The translations under genes were made by a program, and so were the position numbers. Below are positions 1,271-18,294 of a DNA stretch of 64,000 bases, in pieces. This stretch comes from a virus. How positions within the stretch are numbered: position 1 is the stretch's first letter; every line of letters begins with the position of its first letter. Location of the stretch: the IMG/VR virus record IMGVR_UViG_3300033146_001382, positions 1-64,000 of that record. One strand, 5' to 3'. The notes below the pieces were generated by a model, which was given only the letters and a program-made list of their open reading frames with translations, searched no databases and was not told the origin of the DNA.

Positions 1271-1435
1271 CTATAGTCCAGGAATCCATGCCTGAACTAA
1301 TACCTTAGGAAACTCCCAAAACATAGTCCTGATGAATTCCCTGTGATGTGGAGACAGCAGGCAACATATAACCTGTATCTCCACAACAAGAGTGATCCCT
1401 AATATGATTAGGGAATTTCTAATCCATTTTTTCAT
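1271..1435 (-). CDS. Small hydrophobic protein, 54 aa (MKKWIRNSLIILGITLVVEIQ...), absent from ORF track
   Basis: Manual translation; starts at the AGGAG-N6-ATG end of repeat R1. Confidence 0.6.
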   Translation of the reverse strand: MKKWIRNSLIILGITLVVEIQVICCLLSPHHREFIRTMFWEFPKVLVQAWIPGL

Positions 1436-8715: not shown

Positions 8716-11559
8716 ATGAAAACTATATTTAAAATAATTTTAATATTGGTTATACTCTCAACTTCTGTAATTAGCCATGGTGGTTCCAATAAAAAGAAAC
8801 TAATTGTAGGAGCGTTTAATTTCCCTCCTGCAATTTTTTTAAATAGTAACGGGGAGACAGAGGGATTTTTTGTTGACTTACTAAAAGAAATAGCTAAAGA
8901 AGAAGATTGGACACTTAGTTTTAAATTTACAACCTGGAGTAATGGGTTAGAGATGATGAAAAATGGTGATTTAGATATTTGGACTAGTACGGCATACACT
9001 GAAGTAAGAAACGCCTATATGGACTATAGTAACGAGCCTATACTAACAACCTGGGTAGAAATATTCTCCTCTACATCATCTAAAGTAAATAGTATATTTG
9101 ATCTAGAAAATAAAATAGTAGCTATAATGAAAAAAGATATTAATGGTATTATTTTTAAAGATTATATTAAAAAACTTAAAATAGACTGTAATATAAAATA
9201 CTACGAGGATTATTTTACAGTATTCCATGATTTAGAGACTGATTTAATTGATGTAGCAATTGCTAATAATATTGCTGGAGGATCTTATTTTACTAACCAT
9301 AAGGTACGTAGAACTAATATAGTATTAAGTCCATTTTTAATTTATTATACGGTACCAAAAAATAAGAATGCTTATGTAATAAAAGCTATAGACAAACATC
9401 TTAAAAAATGGAAATTAGATAGTAGTTCAATATATTATAAGTCGTTAGATTTTTGGTTACATAAAGAAGCTAATATTCAAAATGTAGTACCTAAGGCTAT
9501 TAAAATTATAGGAGTTATAGCAATAGTAGGATTTTTTATAATGGCTCTAATTATTTTAATATTTAAACATAAGGTTAATTCTAAATCTAGAGATGTACTA
9601 GAAGGTGAAGCTGATTATAAATCAACACTTGAAAATTTGTTAATAGGTATTATAGTGTATAAAAAACATTCTGGAATAATTATGTGTAATGAGGAAGCTG
9701 AAAAAATAATAGGATTAACATACTTACAAATAATAGAGAAGAATAGATCTGTACAAGATTGGGACTTTGTATCTGTTGATAAAACCAACTTAAAATTTGA
9801 AGACTATCCAATAAATAAAGTAATAGCCACCAACAATCCTTTAAAAGATACAGTATTAGGCATAAAAAATATTAATAAACATAGTATCACTTGGGTTTTA
9901 GTGAATGCTGTACCTATCTTTACTATGACTAATAAATTAAAAAAAATTATAGTTAATTTTATAGATATAACACATATTAAACAAACAGAAGAGCAATTAT
10001 TAAAAAATGATCAATTTTTACATACAACTAGTAAATTAGCTAAAGTAGGTGGCTGGGAATTAACTAAAGAAGGTGAAATGACTTGGTCAAAAGAACTATA
10101 CTACATACATGAAATACCTATGGGTGTACCTATTGATACTAAATTACTCATTCATAATTTATTTTTAGACCAAAAAGAGGTGATAGATGAAGCTTTTATT
10201 GAACTATTTAAAAATAAACAGAAGATATCCATCCAACTAAAATTAATAACTAAAGAAACAAAAACAGTTAAATGGCTTAGAGTAATAGCTATCCCTTTAT
10301 TAGACAAGAATGGGGAGGTAGAAAAAGTAATTGGGGCAACTCAAGATATCACTACTGTACATAACTTTGCTAAAGAAAAAGAGTTAATGACTAAGCAGTT
10401 ACAACAATCTCAAAAAATGGAGGCTATAGGTACACTCGCTGGTGGAATTGCACATGATTTTAATAATATACTGTCTGGTATATTTGGGTATACCCAGTTA
10501 GCCGAAATGAGTGTAGAAACCCCAGAAAAAGCCAGAAAACATTTAAAAATGGTTGTAGCTAGTGCTCAAAGAGCTGCAGAGTTAGTACAACAAATTTTAA
10601 CTTTTAGTAGAACACCAGATAAAGATCTAGCACCATTAAAAGTATATATAGTAATTAAAGAGGCTATGAAATTACTAAGAGCTTCAATACCTTCCTCAAT
10701 AAAGTTTACTGTAGACATCCAATCTAAAGGAAGTGTAAAGATGGACCCTACTAAAGTACACCAAATTATAATGAATCTAGTGACTAATGCATACCAAGCT
10801 ATCGGAGATGCTGAGCAGGGGGAAATAACTATAGTAGTAAGAGAAATATTTTTAAACAAAAAAGGAGTAATACCTAATGTAGGTCTTAAAAAAGGTGAGT
10901 ACTTAAAACTATCAGTAAGTGACACTGGTACAGGTATGACTAAAGAAGTACAAGAACGACTATTTGAACCATACTACACTACTAAAATAAAAGGGAAGGG
11001 TACAGGTTTGGGGCTGTCTATAGTGCATGGAATAGTTACCAATGCTGGAGGCCAAATTAATGTATATAGTGAATTAGGCATAGGTTCATCTTTTAATATT
11101 TATTTACCTCTCAGTGTAGAACTAACAGCCTATGAGAATAAAAAAGTAACTATCACTGATAAAGAGCTACTTAAAGGTACTGAAACCTTAATGATAGTAG
11201 ACGATGAGCCTATGGTAGTATCAGCTTTTCAAACTATATTAAATCAGTATGGCTATACTGTAGATATTTTCAAAAATGGAGCTCTAGGGTTAGAAGCATT
11301 CAAAAAATATCCAACCAGATATAATCTAATAGTTACAGACCAGACAATGCCAATTATGACTGGGGCAGAAATGTCAAAGCGTATTTTGGATATTAACTCT
11401 GATATGCCTATAGTTCTTTGTACAGGGCATACAGAACAAACTACAAAGGAGCAATGGAAGACTATAGGAATAAAAGGAATTCTAAATAAACCAGTACTAA
11501 CTAGTGATTTATTAATGTCTATTAGAACTATATTAAATAAAAAAGAGATAATTAAATGA
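8716..11559 (+). CDS. Hybrid sensor histidine kinase: SBP_bac_3 sensor, TM, two PAS, HisKA, HATPase, receiver
   Basis: GIAHDFNNIL H-box, MNLVTNA N-box, DTGTGM G1, KGTGLGLS G2, IVDDEP/TDQTMP/NKP receiver motifs. Confidence 0.95.
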   Translation: MKTIFKIILILVILSTSVISHGGSNKKKLIVGAFNFPPAIFLNSNGETEGFFVDLLKEIAKEEDWTLSFKFTTWSNGLEMMKNGDLDIWTSTAYTEVRNAYMDYSNEPILTTWVEIFSSTSSKVNSIFDLENKIVAIMKKDINGIIFKDYIKKLKIDCNIKYYEDYFTVFHDLETDLIDVAIANNIAGGSYFTNHKVRRTNIVLSPFLIYYTVPKNKNAYVIKAIDKHLKKWKLDSSSIYYKSLDFWLHKEANIQNVVPKAIKIIGVIAIVGFFIMALIILIFKHKVNSKSRDVLEGEADYKSTLENLLIGIIVYKKHSGIIMCNEEAEKIIGLTYLQIIEKNRSVQDWDFVSVDKTNLKFEDYPINKVIATNNPLKDTVLGIKNINKHSITWVLVNAVPIFTMTNKLKKIIVNFIDITHIKQTEEQLLKNDQFLHTTSKLAKVGGWELTKEGEMTWSKELYYIHEIPMGVPIDTKLLIHNLFLDQKEVIDEAFIELFKNKQKISIQLKLITKETKTVKWLRVIAIPLLDKNGEVEKVIGATQDITTVHNFAKEKELMTKQLQQSQKMEAIGTLAGGIAHDFNNILSGIFGYTQLAEMSVETPEKARKHLKMVVASAQRAAELVQQILTFSRTPDKDLAPLKVYIVIKEAMKLLRASIPSSIKFTVDIQSKGSVKMDPTKVHQIIMNLVTNAYQAIGDAEQGEITIVVREIFLNKKGVIPNVGLKKGEYLKLSVSDTGTGMTKEVQERLFEPYYTTKIKGKGTGLGLSIVHGIVTNAGGQINVYSELGIGSSFNIYLPLSVELTAYENKKVTITDKELLKGTETLMIVDDEPMVVSAFQTILNQYGYTVDIFKNGALGLEAFKKYPTRYNLIVTDQTMPIMTGAEMSKRILDINSDMPIVLCTGHTEQTTKEQWKTIGIKGILNKPVLTSDLLMSIRTILNKKEIIK

Positions 11560-11984
11560 TCTATTTTAAATACTTATACTATATACTTAATCATAAGTGG
11601 GATGTAGGTATAGAGTGCATAAAACTTAAATTATATTGGCATGCTATAACTCATGATCTATCTAAATTTTATCCATCAGAGTTTAAAGCCTATGCTAAAC
11701 ATTTCTATGCTGGGCCTAATAGAAGCTTATTTGAAACAGCTTGGTGCTTACATCAACATAGAAACAAACATCATTGGGAATATTGGGTAAAAGCTGATGG
11801 ACACACTGTACCGATGCCAGAGCAGTATGTAAAACAAATGGTGGCAGACTGGAAAGGCATGGCTAGAAATAAAAAATTTGATCCGGCTGGTATTTTTTAC
11901 ATTAAAAATAAATATAAAATGAAGCTACATAAACAAACCAAAGCTTGCATATTAAAACTATTATATGAGGAAATTTATGACTAA
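11556..11984 (+). CDS. DUF5662-like HD-fold protein
   Basis: HDLSKF...HQHRNKHHWEYW...MVADW. Confidence 0.75.
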   Translation: MIYFKYLYYILNHKWDVGIECIKLKLYWHAITHDLSKFYPSEFKAYAKHFYAGPNRSLFETAWCLHQHRNKHHWEYWVKADGHTVPMPEQYVKQMVADWKGMARNKKFDPAGIFYIKNKYKMKLHKQTKACILKLLYEEIYD

Positions 11985-12441
11985 AAAAGAACAATTAATT
12001 ACGTGGTACCATACTATTGATTCTTTCAGTGATTTAGAAGACTATTATATTAAATTAATGAATTGTATTGATAATAAACTAGAGGACAACTATTGGACAA
12101 TTATACGTCTAAAAGATAATATACTTAATATACTATGGTATAGTCCTTGTAATTTTATAACTAATATAATTAAATATCGTAAGTTTTTATGGGAAGATAG
12201 ATGGTATGACTACTGGTTCTTATTAAATGCAATTCAAATAAAATTGGAACAAGATGCTAAGAACTATAGAAATAATGGCATTTGTACTTCAACTGATGAG
12301 GTGGCAAAAGAGATGGAAAATACTGTAGCACTTATTAAAAGGATAAATAATGATAATTATGATGATTTTAAACAATCTAAGGTAGATATTAAAAATTTAT
12401 TTGATTATATTGGAAATAATATTTTAAAATGGTGGGATTAA
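11965..12441 (+). CDS. Phage hypothetical protein
   Basis: ORF; LWEDRWYDYWFLL segment typical of large-phage hypotheticals. Confidence 0.6.
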   Translation: MRKFMTKKEQLITWYHTIDSFSDLEDYYIKLMNCIDNKLEDNYWTIIRLKDNILNILWYSPCNFITNIIKYRKFLWEDRWYDYWFLLNAIQIKLEQDAKNYRNNGICTSTDEVAKEMENTVALIKRINNDNYDDFKQSKVDIKNLFDYIGNNILKWWD

Positions 12442-12475
12442 TTTATACAATTAAGGAGATAAACTATATATATAA

Positions 12476-12874
12476 ATGACTATAACATTTGATATAAATA
12501 AAAAAACTAATATTGTTACACATAAGTGGACTGGTAGTATAACAGGTAATTATATAAGTGGCAGACTAAAGGAACTTACTCAATTACCTAGTTGGACTTT
12601 TGGTATGTCGCATATAATAGATATTAAAAAAGCTAACTTTGAATTTATGAGTTCTAATGAATTAATACAAGTACTATCACATATGGAATCTAATACTTTA
12701 AGAAACTCCAAGGGGGAAATTATAGGTAAAATAGTACTACTAACTGATAGAAATAAAAGTAGTTTAGCACATGAACTAAAATTATTTAATTTATTTAAAT
12801 CTAAAACTAATAGAAAAATTAATTTATTTTATGATAAAAATACTTTATGTAAATGGTTAAACAGTAAATATTAA
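12476..12874 (+). CDS. STAS/SpoIIAA-like alpha/beta protein
   Basis: THKWTGSITG, HIIDIKKA, KIVLLTD, NLFYDK..LCKWL pattern. Confidence 0.5.
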   Translation: MTITFDINKKTNIVTHKWTGSITGNYISGRLKELTQLPSWTFGMSHIIDIKKANFEFMSSNELIQVLSHMESNTLRNSKGEIIGKIVLLTDRNKSSLAHELKLFNLFKSKTNRKINLFYDKNTLCKWLNSKY

Positions 12875-12885
12875 GAGGAATAAAA

Positions 12886-13140
12886 ATGAATAATGAATTA
12901 AAGATTTCTACAAAAGATGTTAAAGTTAAATTAACACTAGTTAATAGACAGTCTATAACAGGGACTTTAAATATAATAGGTTATGATCGATTATCTGATT
13001 TTATAGAGATTGATAAGGGAAAACATTTAAAATTGTATAATGCCACCACTGAAGGTAATACACTTAATTTTATTTTAGTTACTAAAGTACATGTACTTTA
13101 TTATGAACTAGACATAACTAAAAATACCTATTACATGTAA
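12886..13140 (+). CDS. DUF6812-like protein
   Basis: ITGTLNI..YDRLSDFI...LYNAT...FILVTK pattern recalled from deltaproteobacterial proteins. Confidence 0.6.
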   Translation: MNNELKISTKDVKVKLTLVNRQSITGTLNIIGYDRLSDFIEIDKGKHLKLYNATTEGNTLNFILVTKVHVLYYELDITKNTYYM

Positions 13141-13166
13141 TTTATAAGGAGGAATTGAATAAACAC

Positions 13167-13325
13167 ATGGAAGAAGTAATTAAAGACTATATTAAACGTA
13201 TGTTTACATTTATTTTACCCCCATGGGAACCTAAGTATGAAGGTGTTCTTATTTATGATATACAGCAACATAATTGGGTTGGTGGAGATAGTATAGGTTG
13301 GGTAGTAATAAAAAAGGAAACTTAA
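13167..13325 (+). CDS. 52-aa protein, paralog of 13329-13532, absent from ORF track
   Basis: MEEVIKDYIKRMFTFILPPWEPKYEGVLIYD...; AAGGAGG upstream. Confidence 0.6.
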   Translation: MEEVIKDYIKRMFTFILPPWEPKYEGVLIYDIQQHNWVGGDSIGWVVIKKET

Positions 13326-13328
13326 TTT

Positions 13329-13532
13329 ATGGAAATAAATGTAATAAATTATATTAAAAATATGTTTGCTATGGAAACTACTCCAGTATGGAATGCAGGT
13401 TATGAAGGTACTATTTTTTATGATAAAAGTACTAGAAAATGGATTTCAGGTATTTATTCTAATTTAGCATTTAACATAATAAATGATGATTTAGATAATA
13501 CTTTTTATATAGACAATATGTATAAGATATAA
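13329..13532 (+). CDS. Small protein, paralog of 13167-13325
   Basis: YIKNMF...PVWNAGYEGTIFYD...W. Confidence 0.6.
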   Translation: MEINVINYIKNMFAMETTPVWNAGYEGTIFYDKSTRKWISGIYSNLAFNIINDDLDNTFYIDNMYKI

Positions 13533-13547
13533 AAAAAAGGATTCACT

Positions 13548-14201
13548 ATGCAAGTAAAAAATAAAACATTACAAAATTTACTATTAAATATAGTAGAGTA
13601 TAGTCATGATATTATATGGATTATAGACACTAATTTAATTGTAGTATACTTCAATAAAGCTATAGAAAAATACGGTTGGAAACGTGATAATTTAATAGGG
13701 AAAAATATATTAAATATAATGGATAAACAATCAAGTAATTTATTTAAAACTACCATAAATAATAAATTTACTACATGTAGTGAGAAAGCTGCAGTAGTCG
13801 AAACTAATAATTTTTTTAATGGTACTAAAAATATTTTTATTCTAGAGTCTACTTGTAAAGTATTACATAATAACTATGGTAAGATTATAGGACTATATGG
13901 TATCTCAAGAGATGTTACTTGTAATAAGCAATTGGAACAAATAACTTTAGAGAAAGAAAAGAAAAAAATGCTAGTTGAAGTATCCGGAGGTATTTGCCAC
14001 GAAGTAAGTCAACCTTTACAAGTCATGATGGGGTATATAGATCTACTGGATACTACAGAACTTAGTGTAGAAGGTAAAAAATATATAAACAACCTACATA
14101 CTAGTATGAATAGATTAAATACTTTAGTTAAAAAGATACAAAATATAAAAGAATATAAAACTAGGTCATATTTAACTACTAAAATAATTGACCTAGATTA
14201 G
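13548..14201 (+). CDS. PAS + HisKA (DHp) protein lacking an ATPase domain
   Basis: PAS (DIIWIIDTNLIVVYFNKA...GISRDVT) then ICHEVSQPLQVMMGY; ends KIIDLD. Confidence 0.8.
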   Translation: MQVKNKTLQNLLLNIVEYSHDIIWIIDTNLIVVYFNKAIEKYGWKRDNLIGKNILNIMDKQSSNLFKTTINNKFTTCSEKAAVVETNNFFNGTKNIFILESTCKVLHNNYGKIIGLYGISRDVTCNKQLEQITLEKEKKKMLVEVSGGICHEVSQPLQVMMGYIDLLDTTELSVEGKKYINNLHTSMNRLNTLVKKIQNIKEYKTRSYLTTKIIDLD

Positions 14202-14210
14202 GAGTTATAG

Positions 14211-14459
14211 ATGAAAATAGAAAAACGAAAGTTTAAACGAGTTATATTTAAAAATTATGTAAATATTATAAATAATGGTAAAATACTGAAAGTTAAATCA
14301 ACTAATGTATCTAGACATGGTATGTTCTTAAATACCAACGTTTTTAATGTAGGGGATAAATTAGTTGCTATATTCTCAGTACTACTTAATATACCATTAA
14401 AAAAAGATATTATTGTAATTAGAAAAAATAATAATGGGATAGGTATCAAATTTATATAA
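14211..14459 (+). CDS. Stand-alone PilZ-domain protein
   Basis: RKFKR (RxxxR) and NVSRHG (NxSxxG) motifs; terminal GIGIKF. Confidence 0.85.
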   Translation: MKIEKRKFKRVIFKNYVNIINNGKILKVKSTNVSRHGMFLNTNVFNVGDKLVAIFSVLLNIPLKKDIIVIRKNNNGIGIKFI

Positions 14460-14469
14460 CTTAGTTATA

Positions 14470-14655
14470 CTAACATTGTACTGTACATTTAGAACTAAAT
14501 AGTCTTTTAAAAAACATAATAAACCCTCTTTGTTGAGGAGGTGCAGTGTCCCACGGAGGATTCTCCCATTTTCCAGAGTTACAAATAAATACTGACTCAA
14601 TGGGTAAAGCAGTTGAGTTTGTTTTAGTTAGTGTTGGTTTTGTCCAATTTTTCAT
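14470..14655 (-). CDS. RiPP-precursor-like peptide (61 aa)
   Basis: AAGGAG RBS; leader MKNWTKPTL (WxxPxL); PIESVFIC; three Cys. Confidence 0.6.
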   Translation of the reverse strand: MKNWTKPTLTKTNSTALPIESVFICNSGKWENPPWDTAPPQQRGFIMFFKRLFSSKCTVQC

Positions 14656-14683
14656 AATTTATCTCCTTTATAATTTACATAAG

Positions 14684-15526
14684 TTAGTTTATTAAGTCAT
14701 TTTCTATATCATTTATTACATTGTAGGATAAATCAAAATATAAATTACTATACTTTATATCTTGTAATTTATATATTTTTTTTACATACTCTAGATCTAC
14801 ATTAAAATAGCTAACTATATTTTTATATAATTCTTCCACTTTATTTGGTGTTTCTATTATAGTTATATTAGTTGATTGATATAAAAAATAGAATTTATTT
14901 ATATATGCGGTTAAATTACTAGTTTTTTCATAAGATCCATGACACCAATGACCGAAAGCCTTATTACCTAATAAAATAGTACGGTCATCACATAATAACG
15001 ACCAGCCGCGTTGTTCTAATTTTTTAGACAAAGTAGATTTACCAGTACCTGAACTACCTAGTAAAGTTATAGCTTTATTATTTTTTATTAAACTATTACC
15101 ATGTAAAATTAAACCATTATTTTTAATTACATATGGATATAACATCACTTGATCAGAATAAAATACACATAAATTATTAATTAACTTTTTATTATAAATA
15201 CTTATTATATTTTTTGGAAGATATATCCGCCAATCAGTTAGCTCTTTATTAACAACAGCTTTTATATTATAAGGTTTATAAAAATATAATATATCTGTAT
15301 TACTTTCTTTTATAATCCAGGTAGAATTTTGAAATCTAGTTTTATATTTTTTAAAAAAATTAAATTTTAATTTAAATAGATTATGAGTTATTTTAATATC
15401 TATATCATTAGTATTATCTATATCTACTTTAAATTTATTAAATTGCTCATTTAAAACTAAACTACTTTTAATTGGCGTATTTAATTCTATTACACAGTTA
15501 CATGTTTTATAATAACTTTTATACAT
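14684..15526 (-). CDS. HprK-related P-loop kinase (RiPP-cassette type)
   Basis: GLILHGNS...LLGSSGTGKST...LLCDDRTIL...HWCHG. Confidence 0.8.
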   Translation of the reverse strand: MYKSYYKTCNCVIELNTPIKSSLVLNEQFNKFKVDIDNTNDIDIKITHNLFKLKFNFFKKYKTRFQNSTWIIKESNTDILYFYKPYNIKAVVNKELTDWRIYLPKNIISIYNKKLINNLCVFYSDQVMLYPYVIKNNGLILHGNSLIKNNKAITLLGSSGTGKSTLSKKLEQRGWSLLCDDRTILLGNKAFGHWCHGSYEKTSNLTAYINKFYFLYQSTNITIIETPNKVEELYKNIVSYFNVDLEYVKKIYKLQDIKYSNLYFDLSYNVINDIENDLIN

Positions 15527-15532
15527 ATATAA

Positions 15533-15560
15533 ATAATAAGTATTATTATTATATTGTCAA
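15533..15560 (-). promoter_or_regulatory. Promoter TTGACA-N16-TATTAT; probably leaderless mRNA
   Basis: -10 ends 6 nt before the ATG at 15526; no SD. Confidence 0.6.
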
Positions 15561-17296: not shown

Positions 17297-17723
17297 CCCT
17301 ATATGTTATGAGTGTTTAAAGTTAATGGTTAAAAAACATAGTATAATTTATATTAATAGACCAGGATTTGGAGAGTATAAGGTTCCAGGAGTATTGCATT
17401 TTTCATGTGAGAAATGCGGGACTAAGATAATTCCACCTATTGAGTCATTAAGAATTACCCAAAAAGGTATTAAATTACACTTATTAAAAGTACTTAAAGA
17501 ATTAAATACTGAGTCAGTATTAAATCTATGTCAGATATTAAAGTGTGAACTTAGTGAGTTAAATGAAGTACTAATACAATTAAATGATGAAAATATCATT
17601 TCATTGAGTGATACCGGTAGATTTCCTATGGTAAGTTTAAATACAATAGAACCTAAAATTAAAAAAGGATTTATCTCAAAATTAATTAATAGCTTATTTA
17701 AAGGTGAAGCTAGTGATATATAA
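17289..17723 (+). CDS. YgiT/MqsA-type Zn-finger plus HTH-like protein
   Basis: CYEC...VPGVLHFSCEKCG. Confidence 0.6.
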   Translation: MSNPICYECLKLMVKKHSIIYINRPGFGEYKVPGVLHFSCEKCGTKIIPPIESLRITQKGIKLHLLKVLKELNTESVLNLCQILKCELSELNEVLIQLNDENIISLSDTGRFPMVSLNTIEPKIKKGFISKLINSLFKGEASDI

Positions 17724-18294
17724 AAATTTTTGTATAATACCAGAAAATGCTATAGAAGAAGAATTTATAGAACATGAAATAAAATTTCTAATAGATGTGT
17801 CTATACATAAACAACATGAAATAAAAGACAAAGATACATATATTAAAATAGTTAAAAATAGATTTATAGATTGGTTAAATAAGGATTCAAAAATGAATGA
17901 AGTAAAACAAGTAATAGTAATACGTAAAGATTTAAAAATGCGTAAAGGTAAAGCTATAGCTCAAGGTGCTCACGCTGCTATGAAAGTAATACTAGACAAA
18001 ACTATAAAAACTGAAGATTCTACTAGTCAATATTTAAAATTAAACTTACTAAAAAATGACCCTATGTTTAAATGGCTTAATGGTAGTTTTACAAAAATAG
18101 TAGTAGGTGTAGATTCATTAGGGGAATTAGAAAAGATAGAGTCAAAAGCTATGGAACTAGGTATTATGTGTGCTAAAATAATAGATGAAGGTAGAACAGA
18201 ATTTAAGAATAAAAAAACTATTACAGCTTTAGCAGTAGGGCCTGAATGGTCGGAAAAATTAGACCCAATAACAAGCAATCTTAAGTTAATATAA
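17704..18294 (+). CDS. pth2: Peptidyl-tRNA hydrolase, Pth2 type, with N-terminal extension
   Basis: KQVIVIRKDLKMRKGKAIAQGAHA...DEGRTEF...TALAVGP. Confidence 0.9.
   Translation: MKLVIYKNFCIIPENAIEEEFIEHEIKFLIDVSIHKQHEIKDKDTYIKIVKNRFIDWLNKDSKMNEVKQVIVIRKDLKMRKGKAIAQGAHAAMKVILDKTIKTEDSTSQYLKLNLLKNDPMFKWLNGSFTKIVVGVDSLGELEKIESKAMELGIMCAKIIDEGRTEFKNKKTITALAVGPEWSEKLDPITSNLKLI

What the first reader, a model, noticed from the sequence alone, without database searches (positions are those of the whole stretch)
14470..15560. Minimal RiPP-like operon: HprK-type kinase plus precursor-like peptide
Seen: the only minus-strand unit after 2.3 kb, with its own promoter and apparently leaderless kinase mRNA, then an SD-led 61-aa peptide with WTKPTL leader, PIESVFIC, many Ser/Thr and terminal CxxxC. 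Known: (Y/W)xxPxL leaders are RRE/PqqD recognition motifs, and HprK-like kinases accompany lasso-peptide and radical-SAM peptide cassettes. No RRE, radical SAM, cyclase or transporter is present. Inference: the phage makes a phosphorylated peptide using only a kinase, or hijacks/decoys the host RiPP machinery.
Basis: partly seen in the sequence, partly recalled or inferred. Interest (0 to 1): 0.8.

Follow-up and report, generated by a model that had tools for sequence, protein, structure and literature searches.

The report
Phage-borne kinase plus RiPP-like precursor peptide
A large uncultured phage carries a two-gene unit, a peptide kinase and a small peptide bearing the docking motif of a recently described family of phosphorylated bacterial peptides. 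It lacks the docking protein, the leader-cutting protease and the exporter that always accompany these genes in bacteria, so it probably depends on or interferes with host machinery.

Summary
A 280-aa HprK/PEPCK-fold P-loop protein (14684-15526, minus) is followed by an SD-led 61-aa ORF (14470-14655, minus) behind its own promoter-like site.

In all 19 distinct loci seen, the kinase's cellular homologues (about 30% identity, full length) sit in the cassette kinase, PqqD/RRE, archaeal-type signal-peptidase-I-like peptidase. Many also carry an NTP-transferase and an ABC exporter, some carry radical SAM enzymes, and they lie in polysaccharide loci. This is the gene set of the 'linear polyphosphorylated peptide' (LPP) RiPPs characterised in 2026 (PMC13381572).

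Their small precursors carry an N-terminal K-x-W-x-K-P-x-L leader. The phage peptide begins M-K-N-W-T-K-P-T-L. W-x-K-P-x-[LIVM] occurs only once in the six-frame translation of the 189-kb contig, in this ORF.

Beyond those ten residues the peptide is an orphan and fails a profile test. The only close kinase relatives, from a second phage-like lineage, lack the peptide.

The phage contig has no RRE, leader peptidase, radical SAM enzyme, NTP-transferase, lasso enzymes or ABC exporter.

Best reading, at about 0.5: a stripped-down LppK/LppA-like module that phosphorylates its own peptide and relies on, or blocks, host LPP machinery. I class it as a new variant of a known kind. Scan notes report a similar kinase-plus-peptide pair in another phage; I did not check this.

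The parts
15533..15560 (-). Sigma-70-like promoter TTGACA-N16-TATTAT. The -10 element ends 6 nt before the kinase ATG, so the mRNA could be leaderless.
   Evidence: (11 of 12 consensus matches) and the sequence. This is a consensus match only, and such sites are not enriched over shuffles in this AT-rich region (22 found against 19.2 expected).
14684..15526 (-). 280-aa HprK/PEPCK-fold P-loop protein of the ScmC family (LppK-like peptide kinase).
   Evidence: Precomputed Pfam PF27840 ScmC. NCBIfam HprK_rel_A 3.9e-9 and ScmC 1.2e-7, both far below cut-off. 587 relatives found in an exhaustive search. All invariant family residues are kept: D125, H142, S159, G162, K163, T165, R182, H196. The AF2 model has pLDDT 91, and its top Foldseek hits are PEPCK and HprK/P.
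14663..14668 (-). Shine-Dalgarno AAGGAG, 7 nt upstream of the peptide ATG.
   Evidence: Sequence. 29 of 41 large ORFs in the window have a comparable 5-mer SD.
14470..14655 (-). 61-aa precursor-like peptide ORF: leader-like N-terminus, Pro/Trp/Ser/Thr-rich middle, and a cationic hydrophobic C-terminal stretch ending C-x-x-x-C.
   Evidence: It is an orphan in a 5.8-billion-protein search and has no Pfam, NCBIfam or PHROG hit.
14629..14646 (-). Codons for W-T-K-P-T-L (peptide residues 4-9), the [Y/W]xxPx[L/V/I] RRE-binding leader motif.
   Evidence: It is the only W-x-K-P-x-[LIVM] in the contig's six-frame translation. It ranks 2nd of 131,464 positions on a PSSM of the cellular leaders. HMM matches are confined to residues 1-10. 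The motif's role is documented in PMC13381572.

Best explanation
The unit is a phage-borne, stripped-down derivative of an LPP-type (linear polyphosphorylated peptide) RiPP cassette.

Proposed course of events, all inferred: during infection the two genes are transcribed from their own promoter and the 61-aa peptide is translated from its strong SD. The ScmC-family HprK-like kinase uses ATP to phosphorylate a Ser (possibly Thr) hydroxyl of that peptide. The peptide's N-terminal W-T-K-P-T-L is the docking motif for a discrete PqqD-type RRE.

The phage has no RRE, signal-peptidase-like leader protease, NTP-transferase or exporter. Leader removal and export would therefore need the host's LPP-like machinery, or else the peptide stays intracellular.

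What is shown: the fold and family of the kinase, the cassette context of its homologues, the presence and rarity of the motif, and the absence of the partner genes in the contig.

What is inferred: that the kinase acts on this peptide, which residue is modified, and the dependence on host proteins.
For: (1) The kinase is full length, keeps every invariant residue of a 30-member family alignment, models confidently as an HprK/PEPCK-like fold, and is kept at 42% identity in a second phage-like lineage. It therefore looks functional.

(2) In all 19 distinct cellular loci examined, homologues lie next to PqqD. In most a signal-peptidase-I-like S24/S26 peptidase follows. NTP_transf_5 is present in at least 6 loci and an ABC exporter in at least 8, within polysaccharide loci. 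This is the LppK/B/S/N/D set of PMC13381572.

(3) The 15 loci scanned for small ORFs each carry one to three same-strand small ORFs with the leader K-x-W-x-K-P-x-L-x-V-I...E-x-V-L. A profile of them retrieves 108 unannotated small proteins; 107 have W-x-x-P-x-[LIVM] and 86 have K at W+2.

(4) The phage ORF directly downstream of the kinase starts M-K-N-W-T-K-P-T-L. The strict motif is unique in 164,308 six-frame residues. The PSSM rank is 2 of 131,464, which gives about 8e-4 per 61-aa ORF. HMMER conditional E-values for this single pre-specified candidate are 0.002 and 0.007.

(5) Coding signals for the ORF: SD, a GC excess without RNA structure, and GC3 lowest in frame.

(6) Precedent: LppK polyphosphorylates core Ser3 of LppA (PMC13381572). 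Lasso-cluster HprK homologues phosphorylate linear precursors with little dependence on the rest of the sequence (PMC8498205).
Against: - The similarity of the peptide to the precursor family stops after about 10 residues. The hydrophobic x-V-I strand and the E-x-V-L block are not matched (block-2 score -2.5, at the 19th percentile).
- Ranked genome-wide by profile score, the ORF is only 8th of 2,737 segments.
- The peptide has no homologue anywhere, so there is no conservation evidence.
- In the related phage-like lineage the kinase is followed by a secreted SNase-like gene, not a peptide. The kinase can therefore persist without an adjacent precursor.
- The peptide lacks the C-terminal Ser found in 61 of 108 family members.
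- All 19 distinct cellular loci pair the kinase with PqqD, so a kinase acting without an RRE would be exceptional.
- The contig is about 72% complete, so missing partners could lie in the unseen part.
- The host is unknown.
Confidence: 0.5

Rival explanations
1. The kinase is a functional phage gene, but the 61-aa ORF is not its substrate. The W-T-K-P-T-L match would be chance or irrelevant, and the kinase would act on host LPP-type precursors or other host proteins. The small ORF would be an unrelated phage protein, for example a membrane-active peptide.
For: The related phage-like lineage keeps the kinase (42% identity) with no adjacent precursor-like ORF. The peptide is an orphan. Its profile match is confined to 10 residues and is not significant genome-wide. 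The second leader block is not matched.
Against: The strict motif is unique in the contig. It falls at the N-terminus of the one ORF co-transcribed directly behind the kinase, and it is exactly the motif used by precursors of the kinase's cellular homologues. The contigs of the other lineage are only 1.4-4.6 kb, so a precursor elsewhere in them cannot be excluded.
Confidence: 0.27
2. The peptide is a decoy. Its leader would occupy the host's discrete RRE and so block maturation of host LPP or lasso-type peptides. The kinase would act separately, or modify the decoy to improve binding. No mature product would be made.
For: Only the RRE-binding block of the leader is conserved, while the protease-presentation part is not. 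The phage encodes no protease or exporter. RRE/leader cross-talk between pathways is real and is tuned by Y against W in the motif (PMC13381572).
Against: There is no evidence that the host has such a pathway. A decoy would not need a 40-residue, compositionally constrained C-terminal part. No precedent for a phage-encoded RRE decoy was found in the papers searched.
Confidence: 0.13
3. The unit is a decaying remnant of a captured host cassette with no current function.
For: Four to five of the six core genes of the cellular cassette are missing. The peptide's leader is degenerate beyond its first block.
Against: The kinase ORF is intact with all invariant residues and a confident fold. It lies on a long branch with a second intact phage-like homologue, which implies long retention. 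The peptide ORF keeps a strong SD, an open frame and a GC-rich composition in a 17-22% GC neighbourhood.
Confidence: 0.07

Closest known systems
LPP (linear polyphosphorylated peptide) RiPP clusters of Bacillota: LppA/K/B/S/D/N (Popov et al., Nat Commun 2026, PMC13381572)
   Same: An HprK-like kinase is paired with a small precursor whose N-terminal [Y/W]xxPx[L/V/I] leader is an RRE-binding motif. The phage kinase's cellular homologues sit in the same six-part gene set within polysaccharide loci. The kinase chemistry (Ser polyphosphorylation) is the expected activity.
   Different: The phage has only K and A, with no RRE (LppB), SpI-like peptidase (LppS), exporter or NTP-transferase. Its leader has W rather than the Y typical of Bacillota LPPs, and it lacks the downstream VLxHQxIxFET block. 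The relatives are from Desulfobacterota, Planctomycetota and other phyla, not Bacillota.
Unannotated WxKPxL-leader precursor family next to ScmC-like kinase/PqqD/SpI-like peptidase cassettes in Desulfobacterales, Planctomycetota, Omnitrophota and Lentisphaerota
   Same: Same kinase family at about 30% identity over the full length. Same N-terminal K-x-W-x-K-P-x-L, placed 3-6 residues after the Met.
   Different: The phage peptide lacks the x-V-I strand and the E-x-V-L-x-x-C-K junction, lacks a C-terminal Ser, and is not retrieved by the family profile. The phage kinase and its one phage-like relative form a long separate branch.
Kinase-containing lasso peptide clusters (paeninodin PadeK, ThcoK, SyanK, pseudomycoidin PsmK)
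   Same: HPr-kinase homologues phosphorylate a Ser hydroxyl of the linear precursor. The leader is W/YxxPxL, bound by a PqqD-like B1 (PMC8498205, PMC13381572).
   Different: No lasso cyclase or B2 protease in the contig. The peptide has no C-terminal Ser and no obvious Thr(-2)/Gly1...Asp/Glu ring signature.
SynChlorMet cassette (ScmC/ScmD/ScmE/ScmF; TIGR04248-04251) and HprK-related kinase A (TIGR04352)
   Same: Same Pfam-level kinase family (PF27840 ScmC). Some relatives are flanked by two radical SAM/SPASM genes and PqqD or are fused to radical SAM.
   Different: Scores are far below the equivalog cut-offs: 31 against 125 bits, and 36 against 200 bits. The phage has no radical SAM or PqqD.
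Phage- or prophage-borne RiPP/bacteriocin clusters (for example sublancin on SPbeta; bioRxiv 10.1101/2020.10.01.322628)
   Same: A virus carries genes for a ribosomal peptide and a modifying enzyme.
   Different: Those are complete clusters with immunity and export genes on temperate phages. This one is a two-gene fragment of a pathway on a large phage of roughly 190 kb or more, with no export or immunity gene identified.

Membership tests
LPP-type RiPP cluster (PMC13381572) | HprK-like kinase (LppK) | tested here: met
   HprK/PEPCK fold, HprK-family profile hits, and intact Walker A and DD(R) motifs. Direct comparison with LppK itself was not possible.
LPP-type RiPP cluster (PMC13381572) | Precursor with N-terminal [Y/W]xxPx[L/V/I] RRE-binding leader | tested here: met
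   W-T-K-P-T-L at residues 4-9, unique in the contig.
LPP-type RiPP cluster (PMC13381572) | Discrete RRE (PqqD-like LppB) | tested here: not met
   No PF05402 match at E<=1 in 189 kb. The contig is about 72% complete.
LPP-type RiPP cluster (PMC13381572) | Archaeal-type signal-peptidase-I-like leader peptidase (LppS) | tested here: not met
   No PF00717 or TIGR02228 match.
LPP-type RiPP cluster (PMC13381572) | NTP-transferase and MsbA-like exporter | tested here: not met
   No PF14907 or PF00664 match.
LPP-type RiPP cluster (PMC13381572) | Kinase-dependent (poly)phosphorylation of a core Ser | not testable with these tools
   Needs co-expression and mass spectrometry.
WxKPxL-leader precursor family (108 members) | Significant match to the family profile over the whole leader | tested here: not met
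   Only residues 1-10 align: 3-4 bits, conditional E 0.002-0.007. The ORF ranks 8th of 2,737 segments genome-wide. The E-x-V-L block is not matched.
Pfam PF27840 ScmC | Match to the family model | tested here: met
   Precomputed Pfam assignment for the window's protein and its relatives. The local Pfam copy lacks this model.
SynChlorMet cassette ScmC (TIGR04249) / HprK-related kinase A (TIGR04352) | Score above the curated equivalog cut-off, and the partner genes present | tested here: not met
   31.4 bits against 125, and 36 bits against 200. No radical SAM or PqqD.
Lasso peptide cluster | Asn-synthase-like macrolactam cyclase and transglutaminase-like B2 protease | tested here: not met
   No PF00733 or PF13471 match in the contig.

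The most novel reading that the evidence does not exclude
A large phage parasitises its host's capsule- or EPS-linked LPP pathway. It supplies its own kinase and a precursor that keeps only the RRE-docking motif. The host's RRE, signal-peptidase-like protease and exporter would then process a phage-specified phosphopeptide, or be jammed by it, during infection. The unit lies beside phage-encoded PilZ and sensor-kinase genes, which fits a wider takeover of host surface-polysaccharide signalling.
Probability: 0.3. Interest if true: 0.8.

Novelty: new variant of a known kind. Interest (0 to 1): 0.6.

Why it matters
LPP-type peptides were described only in 2026. Their biological role is unknown, and they were reported as restricted to Bacillota.

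If a phage carries a kinase-plus-precursor pair from this pathway, and nothing else from it, that would be a first hint of what the pathway is for: a target or a tool in phage-host conflict at the cell surface. It would also be an example of a virus relying on host RiPP machinery.

It offers a very small test system as well, two genes, for asking whether these kinases need an RRE.

As a by-product, the session shows LPP-like cassettes in Desulfobacterota, Planctomycetota, Omnitrophota and Lentisphaerota, with an unannotated precursor family of at least 108 members. Some of these cassettes are combined with radical SAM/SPASM enzymes.

Tried and rejected
- **No close DNA or protein matches in phages.** tblastn and blastn against 50,697 phage records found nothing. 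Scans of IMG/VR with the kinase or with a two-sequence alignment found nothing. The metagenome scan gave only two short contigs of the lineage already seen.
- **Family libraries.** PHROGs and PADLOC gave only P-loop noise. Pfam and NCBIfam gave nothing for the peptide, and NCBIfam gave nothing for 10 cellular precursors.
- **RNA explanations for the GC-rich stretch were rejected.** There is no Rfam hit and no excess folding energy on either strand.
- **'The 61-aa ORF is a truncated PqqD' was rejected.** It occupies the slot that PqqD holds in cellular cassettes, but there is no PF05402 signal and only 225 nt are available.
- **A second leader block.** By eye, E-S-V-F-I-C resembles the family's E-x-V-L-x-x-C. 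A PSSM with variable spacing did not support this, so it is not used as evidence.
- **I-E-S (residues 19-21)** resembles the F-E-T cleavage site of LppA, but it sits two residues further from the aromatic residue. It remains an untested lead.
- **Host assignment** from the phage's hybrid sensor kinase gave only 40-47% identity to many Desulfobacula kinases. That is compatible with such a host but not diagnostic.
- **One literature search on 'ScmC'** returned only unrelated acronyms.

Full report
**Setting.** The window is the first 64 kb of a 189,441-bp IMG/VR virus contig, estimated 72% complete. The neighbourhood of the finding is very AT-rich, 17-22% GC.

**What is at the coordinates.** The ORF list and the sequence confirm both ORFs.
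- A 280-aa ORF at 14684-15526 on the minus strand has Walker A G-S-S-G-T-G-K-S-T.
- 28 nt downstream, a 61-aa ORF at 14470-14655 is preceded by AAGGAG 7 nt before its ATG.
- A TTGACA-N16-TATTAT site ends 6 nt before the kinase ATG. A leaderless mRNA is therefore possible. Promoter-like sites are not enriched over shuffles in this region, and the two relatives have SD-like leaders, so I treat this detail as unproven.
- Apart from ORFs nested within plus-strand genes, this is the only minus-strand unit after about 2.3 kb.
- It converges on a PilZ gene (14211-14459) that follows a PAS-HisKA gene and a 947-aa hybrid sensor kinase.

**Is the small ORF a gene?** Several signals say yes.
- Its GC content is 38% against 17-22% around it.
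- Neither strand folds better than shuffled controls (z -0.10 and -0.38), and Rfam finds nothing. The GC excess is therefore best explained by amino-acid constraint (Pro, Trp, Gly, Cys, Ala codons).
- GC3 is lowest in the ORF's own frame (0.23, against 0.33 and 0.49 in the other two frames), as in the phage's large genes (0.20).
- It is one of only four minus-strand small ORFs in the window with a 5-mer SD.
- There is no conservation evidence. The peptide has no relative among 5.8 billion proteins.

**The kinase.**
- Local Pfam gives only sub-threshold PEPCK/HprK/P-loop hits.
- NCBIfam gives HprK-related kinase A (3.9e-9, 36 bits against a cut-off of 200) and ScmC (1.2e-7, 31 bits against 125).
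- The precomputed Pfam assignment is PF27840 'ScmC'.
- An exhaustive HMMER search finds 587 relatives, many matching over the full length at 26-38% identity.
- In a 30-member alignment the phage protein keeps every invariant residue: D125, G138, H142, S159, G162, K163, T165, R182, G192, H196, F264.
- The AF2 model is confident (pLDDT 91, pTM 0.87). Its best PDB matches are ATP-dependent PEPCK and HprK/P, and a profile search of PDB sequences puts HPr(Ser) kinases first.
- 'HprK-type kinase' is thus correct at superfamily level.

**Context of the homologues.**
- The best cellular relatives (Desulfobacterium autotrophicum HRM2, Desulfobacula and others) sit in a repeated cassette: kinase, then PqqD, then an S24/S26 peptidase, then a 43-73-aa ORF. 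A PEP-CTERM protein and an ABC exporter often follow, within polysaccharide loci.
- I fetched 13 more genomic loci and scored all loci with HMMs built in the sandbox. PqqD and the peptidase accompany the kinase wherever enough flank is available.
- Radical SAM/SPASM genes are added in five loci, and in three of those one is fused to the kinase.
- An NTP_transf_5 gene is present in at least six loci and the exporter in at least eight.
- Three further relatives show the same picture.
- The peptidase's best NCBIfam hit is archaeal-type signal peptidase I.
- None of the components reaches an NCBIfam cut-off.

**The literature match.** This gene set is the 'LPP' pathway described by Popov et al. 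2026 (PMC13381572).
- The precursor is LppA, with a [Y/W]xxP leader.
- The HprK-like kinase LppK polyphosphorylates core Ser3.
- The discrete RRE is LppB.
- The SipW-like signal peptidase LppS removes the leader only when LppB presents it, and it prefers the phosphorylated precursor.
- An MsbA-like exporter and an NTP-transferase complete the set, which is embedded in capsular polysaccharide loci.
- That paper calls LPPs restricted to Bacillota, does not mention phages, and leaves the biological role open.
- Lasso-cluster HprK homologues likewise phosphorylate a Ser of the linear precursor (PMC8498205).

**The leader motif.**
- Small same-strand ORFs in the 15 cellular loci scanned for them share the leader K-x-W-x-K-P-x-L-x-V-I...E-x-V-L.
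- A profile of 18 of them retrieves 108 small 'hypothetical' proteins. Of these, 107 contain W-x-x-P-x-[LIVM], 86 have Lys at W+2, and 61 end in Ser.
- The phage peptide starts M-K-N-W-T-K-P-T-L.
- In the six-frame translation of the whole contig (164,308 residues) the loose motif occurs 25 times. W-x-K-P-x-[LIVM] occurs once, in this ORF.
- On a PSSM of the 12 columns around the Trp, built without the phage peptide, the site ranks 2nd of 131,464 positions. That is about 8e-4 for a 61-residue ORF.
- HMMER's conditional E-value for this single pre-specified candidate is 0.002 with 19 leaders and 0.007 with 108 sequences.

**Limits.**
- The match ends after residue 10. The hydrophobic strand and the E-x-V-L block of the family are not matched (block-2 score at the 19th percentile).
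- Genome-wide, the ORF is only 8th of 2,737 segments by profile score.
What is independent is that the kinase's own homologues use exactly this motif, with W and with Lys at +2.
- The only close kinase relatives (42% identity) belong to a second AT-rich, phage-like lineage: methyltransferase, zinc-ribbon gene, kinase, secreted SNase-like gene. It shows no precursor-like ORF in the 1.4-4.6 kb available.
- In a tree the two phage-type kinases form a long branch outside all sampled cellular ones, so no donor can be named.

**What the phage lacks.** The contig has no PqqD, S24/SpI peptidase, radical SAM, NTP_transf_5, Asn-synthase-like cyclase, B2-type transglutaminase or ABC membrane domain. In contrast, all 19 distinct cellular loci examined pair the kinase with PqqD.

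**Interpretation.**
- The most economical reading is a stripped-down LppK/LppA-like module. The kinase phosphorylates a Ser/Thr of the co-encoded peptide. Kinase-only phosphorylation of linear precursors has precedent in the lasso kinases (PMC8498205).
- The one leader element that is retained is the RRE-docking block. This suggests the peptide still meets an RRE, which can only be the host's. Whether that leads to processing and export (hijack) or to blocking (decoy) cannot be decided here.
- The adjacency to phage PilZ and sensor-kinase genes is suggestive of a link to host surface-polysaccharide control. So is the presence of a PilZ gene in one cellular LPP-like locus. Neither is more than suggestive.
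- I put about 0.5 on the functional kinase-plus-substrate module, 0.27 on a functional kinase with an unrelated small ORF, 0.13 on a pure decoy, and 0.07 on a decaying remnant.

**Novelty.**
- The pathway type is known (2026). A phage-borne two-gene version is not in the papers I could search, and PHROGs has no family for the kinase.
- Unchecked notes from this scan mention a comparable YxxP-peptide plus HprK-like kinase pair in another phage, and an orphan lasso precursor in a soil virus. These are leads, not evidence.
- I class the finding as a new variant of a known kind.

Noticed in passing
window 1271-1435 (-): A 54-aa SD-led ORF gives the top score in the contig on the leader PSSM (M-K-K-W-I-R-N-S-L-I-I-L, without the Pro). 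It also has W-E-F-P-K-V near its C-terminus. It is most likely a small membrane protein whose hydrophobic stretch drives the score, and it has no PHROG hit.
   Followed up: partly
window 8716-14459 (+): A phage-encoded signalling island. It holds a 947-aa hybrid sensor kinase (SBP_bac_3, PAS, HisKA, HATPase, receiver), DUF5662, a PAS-HisKA protein with no ATPase domain (13548-14201) and an 82-aa PilZ protein (14211-14459). The island converges on the kinase/peptide unit. A PilZ gene also sits in one cellular LPP-like locus (L025/L026).
   Followed up: partly
L003-L019, L023-L026: LPP-like cassettes occur in Desulfobacterales, Planctomycetota, Omnitrophota, Lentisphaerota and a Pseudomonadota MAG, although the 2026 paper calls LPPs restricted to Bacillota. 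They comprise kinase, PqqD, SpI-like peptidase, NTP-transferase, ABC exporter and a WxKPxL precursor. 24 of 121 sampled Desulfobacterales genomes have a kinase homologue at E<=1e-20.
   Followed up: partly
L014, L015, L017, L018, L019, L024; proteins P0008, P0020, P0023: A sub-type adds one to three radical SAM/SPASM genes, in some cases fused N-terminally to the kinase (about 650 aa). Its precursors have Cys-rich cores and nearly always end in Ser. Across the wider family, 61 of 108 members end in Ser. This recalls the C-terminal Ser phosphorylated by lasso kinases.
   Followed up: partly
L001, L020, L021, L022: A second AT-rich, phage-like lineage carries the kinase (42% identity to the window's). 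It lies after a D12-class methyltransferase and a small zinc-ribbon gene, and is followed by a signal-peptide-bearing SNase-like nuclease whose start overlaps the kinase stop. A sequence block upstream of the kinase is conserved between L001 and L020.
   Followed up: partly
window 14524-14539 (-) and 14460-14469: A weak terminator-like hairpin (5 bp, then a T-rich run) lies inside the peptide ORF. The peptide ORF and the convergent PilZ ORF end only 10 bp apart, with no clear terminator between them.
   Followed up: no
window 14557-14571 (-), peptide residues 29-33: A second partial copy of the leader motif (K-W-E-N-P, compared with the family's K-W-E-K-P) lies in the middle of the peptide. 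It may be chance.
   Followed up: no
window 13155-13325 and 13329-13532 (+): Two adjacent small ORFs (56 and 67 aa) look like tandem paralogues. Both have ...P-x-W-x-x-x-Y-E-G-x-x-x-Y-D...W. Neither has a family hit.
   Followed up: no
window 17704-18294 (+): The phage encodes a PTH2-type peptidyl-tRNA hydrolase domain (Pfam 4.3e-30).
   Followed up: no
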